Below, one piece after another: positions 538 to 31,495 of a stretch of 32,863 bases of DNA (position 1 is the first letter of the stretch; the number at the start of each line of letters is the position of its first letter). A program made the position numbers and the translations under genes. Where the stretch lies: the IMG/VR virus record IMGVR_UViG_2700989508_000029; one strand, given 5' to 3'. The notes under the pieces are model-generated. The model did not search any database. It saw only the letters and a list, made by a program, of their open reading frames with translations, and was not told where the DNA came from. The stretch comes from a virus (Duplodnaviria; Heunggongvirae; Uroviricota; Caudoviricetes).

Positions 538-556
538 TGGTGCCGATAATAGGAGT
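538..556. repeat. att core direct repeat (attL-type junction): tggtgccgataataggagt, identical to the 3' end of thrW at 31420..31438
   Basis: Exact 19-bp match seen in sequence; extends to about 24 bp with one mismatch (tt[t/g]aatgg...). An integrase gene starts 143 bp to the right. Confidence 0.8.
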
Positions 557-698
557 AAAACACTCGATTAATCTCGTGTTAATGCCATCACCTACGACCA
601 TTACTAATTGATTGAATCTTATAGAAAAATCATCATTTTCTATGCGTCACAATCAATTTTCACATTACAAACGCTCCGACACTTTAGCCGGAGATTTT

Positions 699-1976
699 AT
701 GAGATACAAGCCTAACCAATACTTAATCTGTGATTCTTACGGTAACTACTATTTGAGGATCACGTTGCCTGTGTATATGCAGCCCTTTTTTGAAGGAAAA
801 AGGACGTTTGTCAGGAGTCTACATACAAGTAATCTTCGTGTTGCACGTAGAAAGCGTGATCAGATTGCAGATGAATACCATTGTCTACGGGAGAGTGTCG
901 CCCCTGTAAACAGCACAATAGAGAACACGCTGGAGCTGTTACGCAGTAAGGCTAAATACGCCAAAACAGCTACCAGAATGCAAGATACAGCGTCTTCGTG
1001 TCCGTCATTGCTTAAAATTCTTGAAATCTACCTGACAATTAACAGCACGAAGAAGAAGCCAGCCACTTTAGCTAAGGCAAGAAAAGCGGTAGAGATGTTT
1101 CTCTCCTACCGTAAAAAGCCTGATATTGCATTGCAAGATGTGAGCCGCACCACTGTTACAGGCTGGATTGAACACATGCAAAAAACCCTTTCACAACAAT
1201 CAATTGCAAATTATATCAGCCCAATGGCCCAGCTATGGGAGTTAGCTTCATCACGTTACCACGATGCGCCAGAAAGGGCGCTCTCCCCCTGGCGAGGGCA
1301 TAGGCTTGATGTGGCACAAAGTAGAGAGAGCTATGAGGCATTTTCTAACAAAGAGCTATTGCAGGTGTTGCAAGTATTTTCCGGTAATTCAGCAGAAAAC
1401 AAAGAAATGATGGCTTTGTGTCTTATCGGTGCTTATACAGGTATGCGGATCAATGAGATAGCAAGTCTCACAATAGACGATGTGAAAGAGATCGAAGGTG
1501 TGCTGTGTTTTGAAATCACACAGGGAAAAACGAAAGCTGCGGCGCGTGTTGTTCCTGTACATAGCCTTATCACTCCATTGGTGTTATCTCTTCGTGAAAA
1601 GCCTCACAATGGCTTTTTGTTCTATCACGCCAGCATTACAGAGCGTGCTGACGGTAAACGCTCTACGTGGCATACACAACGATTTACAAGAGCTAAACGA
1701 AAGGCTTTAGGGGAAAAGGGAACAGAAAGGAAGGTGTTTCATTCTCTGAGACACGGAGTAGCACAGCTTCTTGATCGAAATCAAATTCCAGAAGACAGGA
1801 TCGCCCTTCTCCTGGGCCATACACGCGGCAATACAGAGACATTCCGCACATATAGCAAGAATGCAGCTTCTCCAGTAGAGCTTAAAAAATATATTGAGCT
1901 TCTACGCTACCCTGAAATAGAGAAAGGCTTATCAATCAATAAAAAATCAAATTTAAGGCGTAAAACAACGCCATAG
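699..1976 (+). CDS. tyrosine site-specific recombinase (integrase) of the left element
   Basis: Catalytic-domain motifs in order: MRINEIASLTIDDV (Arg), HSLRHGVAQLL (H-x-x-R), LLGHTRGN...TFRTYSK (His/Tyr). ORF track begins at a TTG at 612; I prefer the in-frame ATG at 699 with GGAG 5 nt upstream (ATG at 642 is also possible). Lies next to the att repeat. Confidence 0.75.
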   Translation: MRYKPNQYLICDSYGNYYLRITLPVYMQPFFEGKRTFVRSLHTSNLRVARRKRDQIADEYHCLRESVAPVNSTIENTLELLRSKAKYAKTATRMQDTASSCPSLLKILEIYLTINSTKKKPATLAKARKAVEMFLSYRKKPDIALQDVSRTTVTGWIEHMQKTLSQQSIANYISPMAQLWELASSRYHDAPERALSPWRGHRLDVAQSRESYEAFSNKELLQVLQVFSGNSAENKEMMALCLIGAYTGMRINEIASLTIDDVKEIEGVLCFEITQGKTKAAARVVPVHSLITPLVLSLREKPHNGFLFYHASITERADGKRSTWHTQRFTRAKRKALGEKGTERKVFHSLRHGVAQLLDRNQIPEDRIALLLGHTRGNTETFRTYSKNAASPVELKKYIELLRYPEIEKGLSINKKSNLRRKTTP

Positions 1977-1983
1977 ACGCAAT

Positions 1984-2020
1984 AAAGAGGCTTCAACATA
2001 ATTGGTAGCCTCTTTTATAA
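1984..2020. terminator. putative bidirectional rho-independent terminator between convergent genes
   Basis: Hairpin aagaggct...agcctctt (8-bp stem, ~14-nt loop) with A/T-rich flanks, between the integrase stop (1976) and the stop of the 2057..2770 gene. Confidence 0.4.
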
Positions 2021-2056
2021 TTACATCGTTACAGAGCGTTTTAGAGGCATTTACGG

Positions 2057-29411: not shown

Positions 29412-29611
29412 GCCACCTCGTCTCTAGATTCTAATATACACTTCTCAATCCATTCATCTATTTCAGACTCAACAAAAGCAATTGCCCGACTTCCAATTTT
29501 TACCTGTTTAGGGAACCTCCCCTGACTAATAAGACGATAAATCCATGCTTTGCTATAACCAGTTCGCCTTTGAACTTCAGAGAGACGAATTAATGAATTG
29601 TAATTAGCCAT
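29408..29611 (-). CDS. alpA: AlpA-family phage transcriptional regulator / excisionase-like DNA-binding protein
   Basis: 67-aa protein with the typical AlpA helix-turn-helix (LIRLSEVQRRTGYSKAWIYRLISQGRFPKQVKIGSRAIAFVESEIDEWI); position next to a P4-type int. Confidence 0.8.
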   Translation of the reverse strand: MANYNSLIRLSEVQRRTGYSKAWIYRLISQGRFPKQVKIGSRAIAFVESEIDEWIEKCILESRDEVA

Positions 29612-30039
29612 TTATTAATATCCTGTACTAATGACGCAATAACTCCCTCCTGCAACGAATGGCGAGAGTTTTATTTGCGTCAAATGTCGAATACGCCAAA
29701 GACCACAATATGAAAAACATATTGCGGTCTTTTATAAAAGATAGTCAGATTGTTTTGGTTTGTTTGCTCCACAAGGGTAGAGCTACCCTGCATTTCGGCA
29801 GGATCACGCTATTAGGCGTGACATCCAGTAGTTTTAAAGAACAATTGCGCTTTGTCAGCGCCAAAGCCTGTTAAAGAACATTCCGCTTTGTCAGCGACGT
29901 AGAAGGCTCAATACACCTTCGTTTATAAAAGAGCGATTGCCCTTCTCCAGGGCTAACTGTTAAATAGCAATCCTCTGTGAGTTTTTATCAATCTACTCCC
30001 CTATACTTTAGTAAACCTCTGTATACTTGTCCAGTTGTT

Positions 30040-31254
30040 TCATGCGTGTTTTTCAAACACCATATGCACCACATTTCCGCCATGCTCGAGAGAATCCATA
30101 TAGTCGGCATACCATTGAAGCATCTCCCGCCTTCCATCCAGATATTGCGCATGGTTGTATGTGCCACGAATTGAGTTCTTATCAACGTGAGCGAGCTGCG
30201 TTTCTATCCACGCGGTGTTATAGCCCTGCTCATGCAAAATCGTACTCATAGTGTGCCGGAACCCATGACCAGTTACACGTCCAGCGTAGCCAATGCGCTT
30301 AAACACTTGGTTTATGCTGGCCTCGCTCATTGTTTTCCTTGGATCATTGCGCCCGGGAAACATAAGAGGGTAATTGCCTGTTATTTCTCTAATCTTCCCA
30401 ATAAGCGAAAGAGCCTGCTCAGACAATGGCACAATATGAGTCCGCCGCATTTTCATACGTGAAGCGGGTATCTCCCAGATAGCCTTGTTGAAATCAATTT
30501 CATCCCATAATGCGCCACGTAGTTCGCCAGTCCGCAAGCCGGTGATAATCAGTAGACGAGCCGCCATAACAACCAATGCGCTTCCTGAGTAACTGGACAA
30601 TGCCTTGAAAAAATCAGGTAATTCTTTGGCTGTAAGGAAAGGGTAATGATTAGATTCATGGCCTTGCATCGCGCTAGTAAGGTCTGGTGCAGGGTTATAC
30701 TCTGCGCGACCAGTGACTATTGCATAGCGGAAAACTTCCCCGCACCGTTGCCTCACTTTTTTGGCTTTTTCTGTAGCACCGCGCCCCTCGATGCGACGCA
30801 GCACATTCAGAAGTTCAAGTGGTTTGATTTCGGCGATGGGTTTTTTGCCAATGTAAGGGAACACATCTTTGTTGAAGGCTTCGAGGATGTCTGAAGCATA
30901 ACCAGCAGACCATTTTTTTAATTTGCTGCTGTGCCACTCAAGGGCAATATCTTTGAAGGTGTTGTTTAACTGCGTTTCCCGGGCAATCTTTTCCTCTCGT
31001 TTCGCTTCCATCGGATCGATACCACCAGCGATACCTCTTTTCGCATCTTCACGTTTTGCCCGAGCATCGGCTAGAGTAACCTCAGGATAAACACCTAGTG
31101 CCAATAGCTTCTCTTTACCAGCTACACGATATTTAAGTCGCCAGTATTTACCTCCATTAGGTTTTACCAAGAGATACAAACCGCCACCATCGGCCAGCTT
31201 GTAAGCCTTCTCTTTTGGCTTGGCTGTGTCTATTTGACGGGCATTGAGTTTCAC
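30040..31254 (-). CDS. int: P4-family tyrosine integrase (404 aa)
   Basis: N-terminal arm-binding region (KLADGGGLYLLVKPNGGKYWRLKYR), catalytic motifs (RTGELRG...HGFRHT...LAHVDKNSIRGTYNH); next to the tRNA att site. Confidence 0.9.
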   Translation of the reverse strand: MKLNARQIDTAKPKEKAYKLADGGGLYLLVKPNGGKYWRLKYRVAGKEKLLALGVYPEVTLADARAKREDAKRGIAGGIDPMEAKREEKIARETQLNNTFKDIALEWHSSKLKKWSAGYASDILEAFNKDVFPYIGKKPIAEIKPLELLNVLRRIEGRGATEKAKKVRQRCGEVFRYAIVTGRAEYNPAPDLTSAMQGHESNHYPFLTAKELPDFFKALSSYSGSALVVMAARLLIITGLRTGELRGALWDEIDFNKAIWEIPASRMKMRRTHIVPLSEQALSLIGKIREITGNYPLMFPGRNDPRKTMSEASINQVFKRIGYAGRVTGHGFRHTMSTILHEQGYNTAWIETQLAHVDKNSIRGTYNHAQYLDGRREMLQWYADYMDSLEHGGNVVHMVFEKHA

Positions 31255-31264
31255 TTGGGGGTAC

Positions 31265-31419
31265 CTCCACTAAACCGAACAGCAAATACCCCCATAAGTA
31301 CCCCCATCTGACCGTAGATTTTGAGGGACTTTAGTAGACGTCAAAAGACGAACGGGGCTTTAATACGCGGATTATAAGGGGTTTTGAAAGACTTTAGTAG
31401 ACTTGGGGAGATGTTTGAA
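31265..31419. promoter_or_regulatory. attP-derived arm between int and thrW with putative integrase arm-site repeats and the int promoter
   Basis: Direct repeats gactttagtagac (x2) and taccccca motifs between the int start (31254) and the att core. Confidence 0.35.
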
Positions 31420-31495
31420 TGGTGCCGATAATAGGAGTCGAACCTACGACCTTCGCATTACGAATGCGCTGCTCTACCAACTGAGCTATATCGGC
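31420..31495 (-). tRNA. thrW: tRNA-Thr (anticodon CGU)
   Basis: Reverse complement reads GCCGATATAGCTCAGTTGGTAGAGCAGCGCATTCGTAATGCGAAGGTCGTAGGTTCGACTCCTATTATCGGCACCA (76 nt): 7-bp acceptor stem, CGT anticodon, T-arm GGTTCGACTCC, 3' CCA; downstream of proA as in E. coli. Confidence 0.9.

What the first reader, a model, noticed from the sequence alone, without database searches (positions are those of the whole stretch)
538..31438. Tandem integration at thrW: three att copies and two unrelated integrases
The 19-bp 3' end of thrW is repeated exactly at 538..556 and degenerately at 12901..12917. One tyrosine recombinase lies at the far left (699..1976) and a P4-type integrase next to the tRNA (30040..31254). 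Arm-like motifs (acccccaNaagtaccccc) occur near both the middle site and the int-proximal arm. This fits two elements integrated in tandem at the same tRNA, with the older junction decaying.
Basis: partly seen in the sequence, partly recalled or inferred. Interest (0 to 1): 0.5.

Follow-up and report, generated by a model that had tools for sequence, protein, structure and literature searches.

The report
Two mobile elements stacked at thrW
Two unrelated mobile elements, each with its own integrase, sit back to back at the E. coli threonine tRNA gene thrW; this is a well-known kind of arrangement, shown here cleanly because each element also occurs alone, and in the opposite order, in other strains.

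Summary
thrW (31420-31495, minus strand) has its 3' end repeated exactly at 536/538-556. A variant copy lies at 12899-12918 (one base deleted, two changed). None of 100 shuffles gave any such match.

The tandem reading holds. In 5,426 complete E. coli genomes:
- the empty yagP|thrW site occurs in 948;
- element A's right end abuts thrW in 392;
- element B abuts yagP in 54;
- the A|B junction of this window occurs in 6;
- the reverse order (B-type then A) occurs in 72.

"Older junction decaying" is not supported. The variant middle site travels with B next to four different left-hand partners, so it is B's own attP arm. Strand exchange is therefore confined to the 7-bp ATGGTGC at the CCA end of the tRNA.

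The "arm-like motif" belongs to B only. It reproduces the annotated attP arm repeats of phage P4, and B's integrase is 42% identical to P4 Int. It is conserved, with concerted changes, in 22 further thrW-linked loci spanning some 15 genera.

Tandem arrays at thrW are already documented (O157 Sakai Sp1/Sp2; Shigella SfI/SfX), so this is an ordinary new instance.

Side lead: A carries homologues of phi92-like phage structural proteins and a 46-bp match to that phage's terminal-repeat boundary, so it may be an undescribed satellite.

The parts
1..411 (+). yagP remnant (C-terminal LysR substrate-binding fragment). This is the chromosomal flank on the far side of the thrW integration site.
   Evidence: ORF. 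RefSeq annotation of identical DNA. K-12 has yagP at the same place, next to CP4-6 intF.
536..556 (.). Left att site: an exact 21-bp copy of the thrW 3' end plus 2 bases (AATGGTGCCGATAATAGGAGT), joined to element A's int-proximal (P') arm.
   Evidence: junction alignments.
557..12898 (.). Element A, 12.3 kb. It holds its own integrase, homologues of three phage structural proteins, a Rep-like protein, and a 3.7-kb AT-rich stretch with no convincing ORFs.
   Evidence: A occurs with its right end directly on thrW (A-only strains L001 and L090 are read examples); this junction is found in 392 genomes, which include B-type-then-A arrays. Gene content.
699..1976 (+). IntA, a tyrosine recombinase (DUF6538 + SAM_5 + Phage_integrase). 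It lies at the end of A distal to the tRNA and reads inward.
   Evidence: About 24% identity to IntB and to K-12 IntF. Homologues at 47% identity also lie next to a thrW 3' fragment.
2057..2770 (-). Dit-like / tail-tube-initiator homologue in A.
   Evidence: Pfam Dit_like. 61% amino-acid identity to a phi92-like phage gene. The best phage relatives are Stephanstirmvirinae at 54-61%; rV5-like phages reach about 27%.
2805..4634 (-). 609-aa tape-measure-like protein in A.
   Evidence: phrog_16051. 53% identity over the N-terminal 66 aa and 32% over 242 aa to the adjacent, colinear gene of the phi92-like phage.
4937..5965 (-). Major capsid protein homologue in A (lambda gpE-type).
   Evidence: Pfam Phage_cap_E and phrog_29. 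21% identity over the full length to the phi92-like capsid protein.
8075..8767 (-). Rep-like winged-helix protein of A (weak match).
   Evidence: phrog_270/428 replication initiation; Pfam HTH_36 falls below its cut-off.
10416..10739 (.). Iteron-like 22-23-bp direct repeats in A's ORF-poor stretch; a candidate replication origin.
11745..11790 (+). 46-bp block, 93.5% identical to the inner boundary of the left terminal repeat of phage phi92.
   Evidence: Present in all five full A-type loci held.
12899..12918 (.). Middle att site, AATGGTG-CGATAATAGGAAC: A's right (P) arm joined at ATGGTGC to B's far (P') arm.
   Evidence: junction alignments. The same variant sits next to four different left partners.
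12919..31417 (.). Element B, 18.5 kb. It holds a P4-type integrase, AlpA, AntA/B, an Ash/Icd/C4-RNA module, a Zn-ribbon/Toprim/DUF927 primase, P22-like gp14-gp7-gp20-gp16 genes, a weak SieA-like match, Abi_2 and PerC.
   Evidence: B occurs alone at thrW in strain MB49 (L002). At least 80% of B is present in 139 genomes. Gene content.
12979..13000 (+). Two tandem arm-type repeats (TACCCCCAAA, 12-bp spacing) on B's P' arm, about 60 bp from the core.
   Evidence: Conserved in the diverged B' of strain E189. P4 has the same arrangement.
16755..21413 (-). P22-like ejection-protein module of B (gp14/DUF2824, gp7, gp20, gp16-like).
   Evidence: Only patchy 67-90% nucleotide similarity to known P22-like phages.
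22176..24932 (-). Primase of B (Zn ribbon + Toprim + DUF927).
29408..29611 (-). AlpA-family small DNA-binding protein of B; candidate excision/directionality factor.
   Evidence: Pfam Phage_AlpA, 7e-20; phrog 'excisionase and transcriptional regulator'.
30040..31254 (-). IntB, a P4-type integrase (Arm-DNA-bind_3 + Phage_int_M + Phage_integrase). It lies next to thrW and on the same strand.
   Evidence: 42% identity to P4 Int over the full length, E 3e-116. Of 24 homologues at 71% identity or more, 22 lie about 165 bp from tRNA-Thr(CGU).
31256..31263 (-). Inverted copy of the arm-type motif, next to and overlapping the GTG start codon of IntB (31252-31254).
   Evidence: Invariant in alignment A2. 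P4 has an annotated arm repeat over its int start.
31284..31307 (+). Two tandem arm-type repeats (AAATACCCCCAT / AAGTACCCCCAT) on B's P arm, about 110 bp from the core.
   Evidence: P4's counterpart lies 112 bp from its core.
31314..31402 (+). A second family of repeats (GTAGAT, then 2x TTTAGTAGAC) between the arm sites and the core. Candidate sites for an accessory protein.
   Evidence: Conserved across genera, with a concerted change GTCTAC -> GTCAAC in all three copies in the distant clade.
31418..31438 (.). Right att site: the thrW 3' end plus 2 bases. The 7-bp ATGGTGC (31419-31425) is the only block shared by every junction type.
31420..31495 (-). Intact thrW, tRNA-Thr(CGU).
31610..32863 (-). 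proA, the chromosomal flank on the tRNA side.
   Evidence: annotation.

Best explanation
The 30.9 kb between yagP and thrW is an array of two independent integrative elements. Each was inserted by its own tyrosine recombinase into the 3' end of thrW.

Element A (557-12898) carries IntA at its tRNA-distal end. Element B (12919-31417) carries a P4-type integrase and an AlpA-family protein at its tRNA-proximal end, together with a P4-style attP. That attP has two tandem arm-type sites on each arm, a fifth inverted site next to and overlapping the int start codon, and a second repeat family between the arm sites and the core.

An element that integrates into the intact tRNA ends up next to it, so in this strain B most likely came in after A (inferred). 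The middle site is the product of that event: A's right arm, the shared core, then B's own P' arm. B's P' arm carries only an imperfect imitation of the tRNA 3' end.

That imitation stays with B whatever lies to its left, and the tRNA stays intact. So strand exchange must take place in the 7-bp ATGGTGC that encodes the ...GCACCA end of the tRNA. This is shown for the event or events that made or resolved the A|B junction. Assigning it to IntB is an inference.

Predictions, all inferred:
- B can excise precisely and restore the A|thrW junction.
- A alone now faces an altered right-hand partner site, and may depend on B leaving first.
For: Repeats and tRNA.

Independent occurrence. A alone is seen in L001 and L090, with 392 genomes carrying the A-end|thrW junction. 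B alone is seen in L002, with 54 genomes carrying the yagP|B junction. The predicted empty site is found at 100% identity, in 948 genomes. The A|B junction occurs in 6 genomes from at least two backgrounds. The reverse order, B-type|A, occurs in 72 genomes; a fully read example (L118) holds the same B gene set.

Junction combinatorics. Every left arm (yagP flank, A P arm, B P arm, the P arm of another P4-type island) is found joined to every expected right arm (thrW body, A P', B P') exactly at ATGGTGC.

IntB. P4-type domains. 42% identity to P4 Int. 22 of 24 homologues at 71% identity or more sit about 165 bp from tRNA-Thr(CGU) in some 15 genera, while those at 68% or less sit at Gly, Arg, SeC or Ser tRNAs.

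Arm sites. In the 23-sequence alignment (this window plus 22 loci) the three int-proximal copies have invariant G/C-run cores, and all three change together from GGGGGTA to GGGGGCA in the distant clade. Number, orientation and spacing match the arm repeats annotated in the P4 record.

Precedent for tandem arrays at thrW: Sakai Sp1/Sp2, O157 clade 8 (PMC9997748), SfI/SfX (PMC3306764).
Against: - No circular attP junction of either element was found in IMG/VR or JGI metagenome contigs, so present-day excision is not shown.
- The order of arrival in this strain cannot be read from the sequence. A inserting into B's far-end site, with exchange in ATGGTG, would give the same junctions.
- IntA's own exchange point is unresolved, because A's attP and attB share all 21 bp.
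- The genome counts are megablast hits covering at least 80% of 500-bp junction queries, and many of the genomes are clonally related. They count genomes, not integration events.
Confidence: 0.85

Rival explanations
1. The middle site is the old junction of the first-arrived element and has decayed in place by mutation. B integrated with exchange at the inner (T-loop) end of the repeat, and A later inserted into that decayed copy.
For: Most tRNA-integrating elements carry a faithful copy of the tRNA 3' end and leave the displaced original at the far end, where it is free to decay (established knowledge). The related element B' of strain E189 has a nearly perfect far-end copy, so B's variant is a derived state.
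Against: The same three changes are found at B's far end next to four different left partners. In-place decay would have to recur, or A and another island would have to choose the degenerate site over the perfect thrW in the same cell. Even then, the observed perfect left site and variant middle site require exchange within ATGGTG(C). Inner-end exchange with B's present sequence would put the 1-base deletion into thrW, yet thrW is intact.
Confidence: 0.07
2. The 31 kb is one composite island that moves as a unit. The inner repeat is incidental.
For: The outermost repeats are a perfect 21-bp pair.
Against: Each half occurs alone at the same site and the halves occur in both orders. Only 6 of 5,426 genomes have this A|B junction. 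The inner site is not a chance match.
Confidence: 0.02
3. The array was assembled by homologous recombination or another rearrangement between strains, not by site-specific integration.
For: The locus is flanked by conserved core genes, and whole islands are exchanged between E. coli strains by flanking homology (established knowledge). Vertical inheritance surely accounts for many of the counted genomes.
Against: Flanking homology would replace one element with the other, not stack them. All junctions are exact to the base at the 7-bp core, with no extra or missing bases, in five junction combinations.
Confidence: 0.05

Closest known systems
Sp1 + Sp2 tandem prophages at thrW of E. coli O157:H7 Sakai (also noted for O157 clade 8 in PMC9997748)
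   Same: Two elements with different integrases are stacked at thrW between proA and yagP, and one of them is P4-like. Both are annotated in the genome record.
   Different: The elements are different. In Sakai the lambda-like Sp1 (pseudogene integrase) is next to thrW and the P4-like Sp2 is distal. Here the P4-type element is next to thrW, and the distal element carries its integrase at the far end.
SfI + SfX serotype-converting phages in tandem at thrW of Shigella flexneri (PMC3306764)
   Same: Sequential integration of two elements at thrW, shown experimentally, with an att site at each boundary.
   Different: Those are complete temperate phages with closely related integrases and a long att core. 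Here the elements are two small non-phage elements with distantly related integrases and, for B, an effective core of only 7 bp.
Satellite phage P4 Int/attP module (leuX)
   Same: IntB is 42% identical to P4 Int over its full length and has the same domains. The attP layout matches: an inverted arm repeat at the int start, two tandem 12-bp repeats, about 110 bp, a core beginning AATGGTGCCGA, about 55-60 bp, then two more tandem repeats. The arm motif is of the same type, (A/G)T(A/G)CCCCC.
   Different: The target is thrW, not leuX. The tRNA-like segment of B's attP is imperfect, whereas P4's core is 20 bp of perfect identity. By RefSeq annotation B lacks sid, psu and delta, and it carries a DUF927 primase and P22-like ejection genes.
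Cryptic prophage CP4-6 of E. coli K-12
   Same: Same locus, and the same unusual geometry as A: the integrase (intF) lies at the end distal to thrW, next to yagP.
   Different: IntA is only about 24% identical to IntF over 136 aa. Gene content is unrelated.
PLE of Vibrio cholerae (satellite of the virulent myophage ICP1). This comparison applies only to the side lead on element A.
   Same: A small integrative element tied to a large virulent myovirus rather than to a temperate phage (the background on PLE is in PMC12772148).
   Different: No helper dependence has been shown for A. Unlike what is described for PLE, A encodes its own capsid, tape-measure-like and tail-tube-initiator homologues.

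Membership tests
Tandem site-specific integration array at a tRNA gene | Intact tRNA at one end, and a direct repeat of its 3' end at every element boundary | tested here: met
   three sites (536, 12899, 31418), with 0 expected by chance.
Tandem site-specific integration array at a tRNA gene | Each unit has its own integrase | tested here: met
   two tyrosine recombinases with different N-terminal domains, 24% identical.
Tandem site-specific integration array at a tRNA gene | Each unit is found alone at the same site, and the empty site exists | tested here: met
   empty site in 948 genomes; A alone (L001, L090); B alone (L002).
Tandem site-specific integration array at a tRNA gene | Order is not fixed (independent arrival) | tested here: met
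   A-B-thrW in 6 genomes, B-type-A-thrW in 72.
Tandem site-specific integration array at a tRNA gene | Separate excision products (attP circles) for each unit | not testable with these tools
   Exact-pattern scans for the predicted circle junctions found none. The hits are array junctions, not circles.
P4-type integrase / attP module (element B) | Arm-binding N-terminal domain + central domain + tyrosine recombinase catalytic domain, with homology to P4 Int | tested here: met
   (PF13356, PF22022, PF00589); 42% identity over 405 aa, E 3e-116.
P4-type integrase / attP module (element B) | Repeated arm-type sites on both sides of the core, including one at the int start | tested here: met
   Cross-genus conservation and concerted change. 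Same layout as the annotated P4 repeats.
P4-type integrase / attP module (element B) | Integration at the 3' end of a tRNA gene, with int adjacent to the tRNA and on the same strand | tested here: met
   Of 24 homologues at 71% identity or more, 22 lie next to tRNA-Thr(CGU).
P4-type integrase / attP module (element B) | Int binds the arm sites and catalyses exchange in the core | not testable with these tools
   Needs footprinting and in vitro recombination. Here it is inferred from the junction sequences only.
P4-like satellite in the strict sense (sid, psu, delta, epsilon, alpha primase) | Capsid-size and helper-control genes sid, psu and delta | tested here: not met
   None appear in the RefSeq annotation of identical DNA or in Pfam/PHROG scans of ten B proteins. 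Not every small ORF was scanned.
Gram-negative PICI-like satellite (element B) | int + alpA + primase/replicase in a 10-20-kb island that lacks capsid, tail and lysis genes | tested here: inconclusive
   int, alpA and the primase are present. But B also carries four P22-like virion ejection genes. No helper or induction data.
Phage satellite (element A; side lead) | Integrase plus its own replication functions, with no terminase, portal or most tail genes | tested here: inconclusive
   Integrase is clear. Rep-like protein and iterons are weak matches. Neither terminase nor portal is annotated or found.
Phage satellite (element A; side lead) | A specific link to a helper phage (shared structural genes or packaging signal) | tested here: inconclusive
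   Dit-like protein 61% identical, tape-measure-like 32-53%, capsid 21% to a phi92-like genome, and colinear with it. A 46-bp match straddles the phi92 terminal-repeat boundary. Function untested.
Phage satellite (element A; side lead) | Helper-dependent induction, packaging and transfer | not testable with these tools
   Needs infection experiments.

The most novel reading that the evidence does not exclude
thrW in these strains holds a stack of two phage parasites aimed at different helpers. Element A would be an undescribed family of satellite (or decoy-bearing defence island) of large virulent phi92-like myophages (Stephanstirmvirinae). It would build or modify particles with its own capsid, tape-measure and tail-tube-initiator homologues, and be packaged through a copy of the helper's terminal-repeat boundary sequence. 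Element B would be a P4-integrase/PICI-like satellite that brings its own P22-type ejection proteins.
Probability: 0.3. Interest if true: 0.6.

Novelty: new member of a known kind. Interest (0 to 1): 0.22.

Why it matters
As a tandem array the finding is routine. thrW is a recognised integration hotspot, and stacked elements there have been annotated since the Sakai genome.

The modest added value is a natural set of junctions covering empty, A, B, A-B and B-A states. This set does three things:
- It pins the exchange region of a P4-type integrase to the 7 bp at the CCA end of the tRNA.
- It shows that an imperfect att repeat can be an element's own sequence rather than decay. That is a useful caution for tools that delimit islands by perfect repeats.
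- It predicts order-dependent excision (last in, first out).

The more interesting consequence is indirect. Element A is present at thrW in several hundred complete E. coli genomes, including O26, O103 and O104:H4 strains. It may be an unrecognised parasite of phi92-like phages, which are being considered for therapy.

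Tried and rejected
- **Circle junctions.** I looked for attP junctions of B and of A in IMG/VR and JGI metagenome contigs. No attP was found. The two hits were array junctions: A followed by a lambdoid prophage (L006), and a B|A junction (L134).
- **IntA versus K-12 IntF.** I tested whether IntA is the CP4-6 integrase, which sits at the same position. It is not: 24% identity over 136 aa.
- **Arm sites for A.** I found only one inverted 10-mer pair flanking the core. That is too weak to claim.
- **RNA genes in A.** The Rfam gathering-threshold scan of the whole window found nothing in A's 3.7-kb ORF-poor stretch.
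- **Origin of B's ejection module.** I tested whether it is a recent capture from a known P22-like phage. Similarity is only patchy, 67-90%, so it is not.
- **Literature.** I searched for these elements, for satellites at thrW, and for satellites of phi92, Justusliebigvirus and Phapecoctavirus. Only the general thrW precedents turned up. The library lacks most subscription journals, so absence of a paper is weak evidence.
- **IntA relatives.** A scan of viral contigs returned almost only near-identical E. coli copies, so IntA's target range outside E. coli remains thinly sampled.
- **Order of arrival.** I considered and set aside deducing it from identity levels. A-only, B-only and A-B states all occur among closely related STEC genomes at 99.8-100% identity.

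Full report

ARAGORN finds a single tRNA, tRNA-Thr(CGU), at 31420-31495 on the minus strand, followed by proA. The window starts with the yagP remnant. The 19-mer TGGTGCCGATAATAGGAGT occurs exactly at 538-556 and 31420-31438, and in none of 100 shuffles. With the two bases beyond the tRNA end included, the exact repeat is 21 bp.

The middle copy was missed at up to 3 mismatches because it has a 1-base deletion. A gapped pattern finds exactly three sites, at 536, 12899 and 31418, with none expected. The middle site reads AATGGTG-CGATAATAGGAAC (12899-12918).

Both integrase ORFs are at the stated coordinates. The motif ACCCCCANAAGTACCCCC is at 12980-12997 and 31288-31305, with 0.07 expected.

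**2. Do the two halves move separately?**

| Locus state or measure | Complete E. coli genomes (of 5,426) |
|---|---|
| Predicted empty site, yagP flank joined directly to thrW (found at 100% identity) | 948 |
| A's right end directly on thrW | 392 |
| yagP flank directly on B's far end | 54 |
| A\|B junction of this window | 6 |
| Reverse junction, B-type integrase end against A's integrase end | 72 |
| At least 80% of A present | 221 |
| At least 80% of B present | 139 |

- Strain CFSAN027346 (L001) and O26:H11 11368 (L090) have A alone between yagP and thrW.
- Strain MB49 (L002) has B alone.
- The six A|B genomes are five STEC of about 5.6-5.8 Mb plus EN-1077 at 98.6% identity.
- The 72 reverse-order genomes include the O104:H4 outbreak strains.
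- Strain 20KM2222 (L118) is a fully read example of yagP-B-A-thrW, with the same B gene set.
- IMG/VR contigs show the same reverse order. One has an integrase region 99% identical to this window's B.
- Other partners also occur. A followed by a lambdoid prophage is seen in L006. A diverged A' is paired with a B-type element carrying restriction-type cargo in strain E189. B sits next to another P4-type island carrying a SPATE autotransporter in L124.

These counts are genomes with megablast hits covering at least 80% of 500-bp junction queries. Many of the genomes are clonally related, so the counts are not counts of events.

**3. What the junctions say**

Alignments of all junction types show a simple combinatorial rule. 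There are four left arms:
- the yagP flank, in two haplotypes;
- A's right end, ...TTGATTTTCTT;
- B's integrase-side arm, ...GGGGAGATGTTTG;
- the equivalent arm of another P4-type island.

There are three right arms:
- the thrW body, CCGATAATAGGAGT-CGAACC;
- A's integrase-side arm, CCGATAATAGGAGT-AAAACACTCG;
- B's far arm, C-GATAATAGGAAC-AAAACAAAC.

Left and right arms are found joined in the expected combinations, always at ATGGTGC, which is the only block common to all of them.

The "degenerate" features of the middle site (a single C, and AAC in place of AGT) always go with B's far arm and never with what lies to the left. So the variant is part of B's attP and not local decay. At least the event that made or resolved the A|B junction exchanged strands within ATGGTGC. 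On the tRNA strand that is GCACCA plus one base.

This also explains how B can carry an inexact imitation of the tRNA end without damaging thrW: nothing to the tRNA side of the CCA end is ever replaced.

The decay scenario can be kept alive only if A, and in L124 another island, inserted into B's degenerate far site rather than into the perfect thrW. Even then the exchange must be in ATGGTG. I rate it unlikely.

**4. The two recombination modules**

IntB has the P4-type architecture: Arm-DNA-bind_3, Phage_int_M and Phage_integrase. It is 42% identical to P4 Int over its full length.

Among species-representative genomes, 22 of the 24 homologues at 71% identity or more lie about 165 bp downstream of tRNA-Thr(CGU). 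They come from Escherichia, Citrobacter, Enterobacter, Kluyvera, Leclercia, Pluralibacter, Lonsdalea, Brenneria and other genera. Homologues at 68% identity or less sit at Gly(CCC), Arg(UCU), SeC or Ser(UGA) tRNAs.

In the 23-sequence alignment of the tRNA-to-int spacer (this window plus 22 of those loci), the G/C-run cores of the arm motifs are invariant in an otherwise variable sequence. There are two direct copies plus one inverted copy at the start codon. In the more distant clade all three copies change together from GGGGGTA to GGGGGCA.

A second repeat family, GTCTAC in three copies, changes together to GTCAAC. Such concerted change is what is expected of sites read by a co-evolving protein.

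The GenBank record of P4 annotates "attP arm sequence repeats" in the same layout:
- one over the int start;
- two tandem 12-bp repeats;
- 112 bp, then a core beginning AATGGTGCCGA;
- 53 bp, then two more tandem repeats.

The P4 motif is ATGCCCCCA. In B the corresponding distances are about 110 and 60 bp.

IntA is a different tyrosine recombinase, with DUF6538, SAM_5 and Phage_integrase domains. It is about 24% identical to IntB, and also about 24% to K-12 IntF, which occupies the same position in CP4-6. It lies 143 bp from the far-left repeat and reads inward. Homologues at 47% identity also sit beside a thrW 3' fragment. I found no convincing arm repeats for A. Its exchange point cannot be resolved, because its attP and attB share all 21 bp.

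**5. Most likely history and behaviour (inferred)**

An element entering the functional site ends up next to the tRNA. In this window, then, A was probably resident and B arrived later. The 72 reverse-order genomes record the opposite sequence of events.

B should excise precisely and regenerate the A|thrW junction. A now faces B's P' arm, rather than the tRNA body, to the right of the core. That differs by one deletion and two substitutions within the 13 bp next to the core, so A's solo excision may be impaired until B leaves.

No circular junctions were found in public contigs, so present-day mobility is not shown.

**6. Comparison with what is known**

Stacked elements at thrW are documented in three places:
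- Sakai Sp1 (lambda-like) plus Sp2 (P4-like), annotated in the genome record;
- O157 clade 8 (PMC9997748);
- SfI plus SfX in Shigella, shown experimentally (PMC3306764).

thrW is listed among the most used tRNA hotspots (PMC7545054). The present case is another instance with different elements. It is a new member of a known kind and of low surprise value.

**7. What the elements are (outside the original finding)**

B combines several modules:
- a P4-type integration module;
- AntA/B, Ash and Icd-like genes, together with Rfam C4 antisense RNA and isrK hits;
- a Zn-ribbon/Toprim/DUF927 primase;
- a diverged P22-like gp14-gp7-gp20-gp16 module, a weak SieA-like match, Abi_2 and PerC.

By annotation it lacks P4's sid, psu and delta.

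A has an integrase, a capsid homologue, a tape-measure-like protein, a Dit-like protein, a weak Rep-like protein, iteron-like repeats, and a 3.7-kb AT-rich stretch with no convincing ORFs. Compared with a phi92-like genome:
- the Dit-like protein is 61% identical;
- the tape-measure-like protein is 32-53% identical and adjacent in the same order;
- the capsid protein is 21% identical over its full length.

Across all phage records, the best relatives of the Dit-like protein are Stephanstirmvirinae at 54-61%, while rV5-like phages reach about 27%.

A 46-bp block at 11745-11790 is 93.5% identical to phi92 positions 318-363. That stretch straddles the annotated end (position 343) of the left terminal repeat. 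The block is present in all five full A-type loci held.

Between A and the A' of strain E189, IntA is 99.3% identical and the last 1.6 kb is 96% identical. In contrast the structural proteins are 59-62% identical or unrecognisable.

This pattern fits a satellite or decoy island aimed at phi92-like virulent phages. I found no paper describing such an element. It remains a lead, not a result.

**8. Verdict**

- Observation: confirmed.
- Tandem interpretation: confirmed.
- "Decay" of the middle junction: rejected, in favour of an element-borne imperfect core arm with exchange at the CCA end.
- Interest as a tandem array: low.
- The side lead on element A is the part worth an experiment.

Noticed in passing
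window 2057-5965, 9200-12900 and 11745-11790: Element A encodes homologues of three structural proteins of phi92-like (Stephanstirmvirinae) virulent myophages: Dit-like 61% identical, tape-measure-like 32-53%, capsid 21%, in the same gene order. It also carries a 46-bp block, 93.5% identical, that straddles the inner boundary of phi92's left terminal repeat. A may be an undescribed satellite or decoy island for these phages.
   Followed up: partly
window 9200-12900: A 3.7-kb AT-rich (34-38% GC) stretch of A has no convincing ORF. It contains iteron-like 22-23-bp repeats at 10416-10739 and 10513-10625. Its last 1.6 kb is 96% conserved in the otherwise diverged A' of strain E189. There are no Rfam hits.
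   Followed up: partly
window 27106-28964, minus strand: Rfam finds a C4 antisense RNA (27354-27441) and isrK (27504-27581) inside the ORF annotated as 'ash family protein'. They lie between an Icd-like gene and an AntA/AntB antirepressor gene, a layout reminiscent of the phage P1 immI region.
   Followed up: no
window 13258-21413: B carries a diverged P22-like virion ejection module (gp14, gp7, gp20, gp16-like), then a weak SieA-like ORF, an Abi_2 protein and PerC. Similarity to known P22-like phages is only patchy, 67-90%. This is unusual cargo for an island with a P4-type integrase and a primase.
   Followed up: partly
L007-L066 (int-upstream 200 bp); alignment A2: The target tRNA switches with integrase divergence: thrW at 71% identity or more; Gly(CCC), Arg(UCU), SeC or Ser(UGA) at 68% or less. 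Within the thrW clade the arm motif and a second repeat family each change in all copies at once.
   Followed up: partly
L116 and L117, about 150-190 bp upstream of int: IntA homologues at 47% identity lie beside a longer thrW fragment (36 bp of the 3' end). After an unrelated insert comes a second stretch matching the anticodon-arm region, as if the copied tRNA piece were interrupted.
   Followed up: no
L124 (GCA_052937885.1): B's far end abuts the integrase-side arm of another P4-type island that carries MarR and a SPATE autotransporter. This is a third kind of tandem partner at thrW.
   Followed up: no
L125, L128, L129, L131: A PerC protein identical to B's, with gp16-like neighbours, also occurs in elements next to ligB and a Gly_transporter gene. 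That is a different chromosomal locus, without the TACCCCC arm repeats. B's cargo modules are therefore shared with islands that use other integration modules.
   Followed up: no
window 12876-12898 compared with 513-535: The last ~20 bp of A's right end (TAAGTTATTGATTTTCTT) resemble the chromosomal sequence just downstream of thrW (TAACTCTTTGATTTT). A's attP may therefore carry an old copy of the tRNA's downstream flank as well as its 3' end.
   Followed up: no
L003 compared with the window, within about 9200-12100: Tandem strain 03_3013 has B 100% identical to this window. Its A is about 281 bp shorter in the ORF-poor stretch, so the window is not from that exact genome.
   Followed up: no
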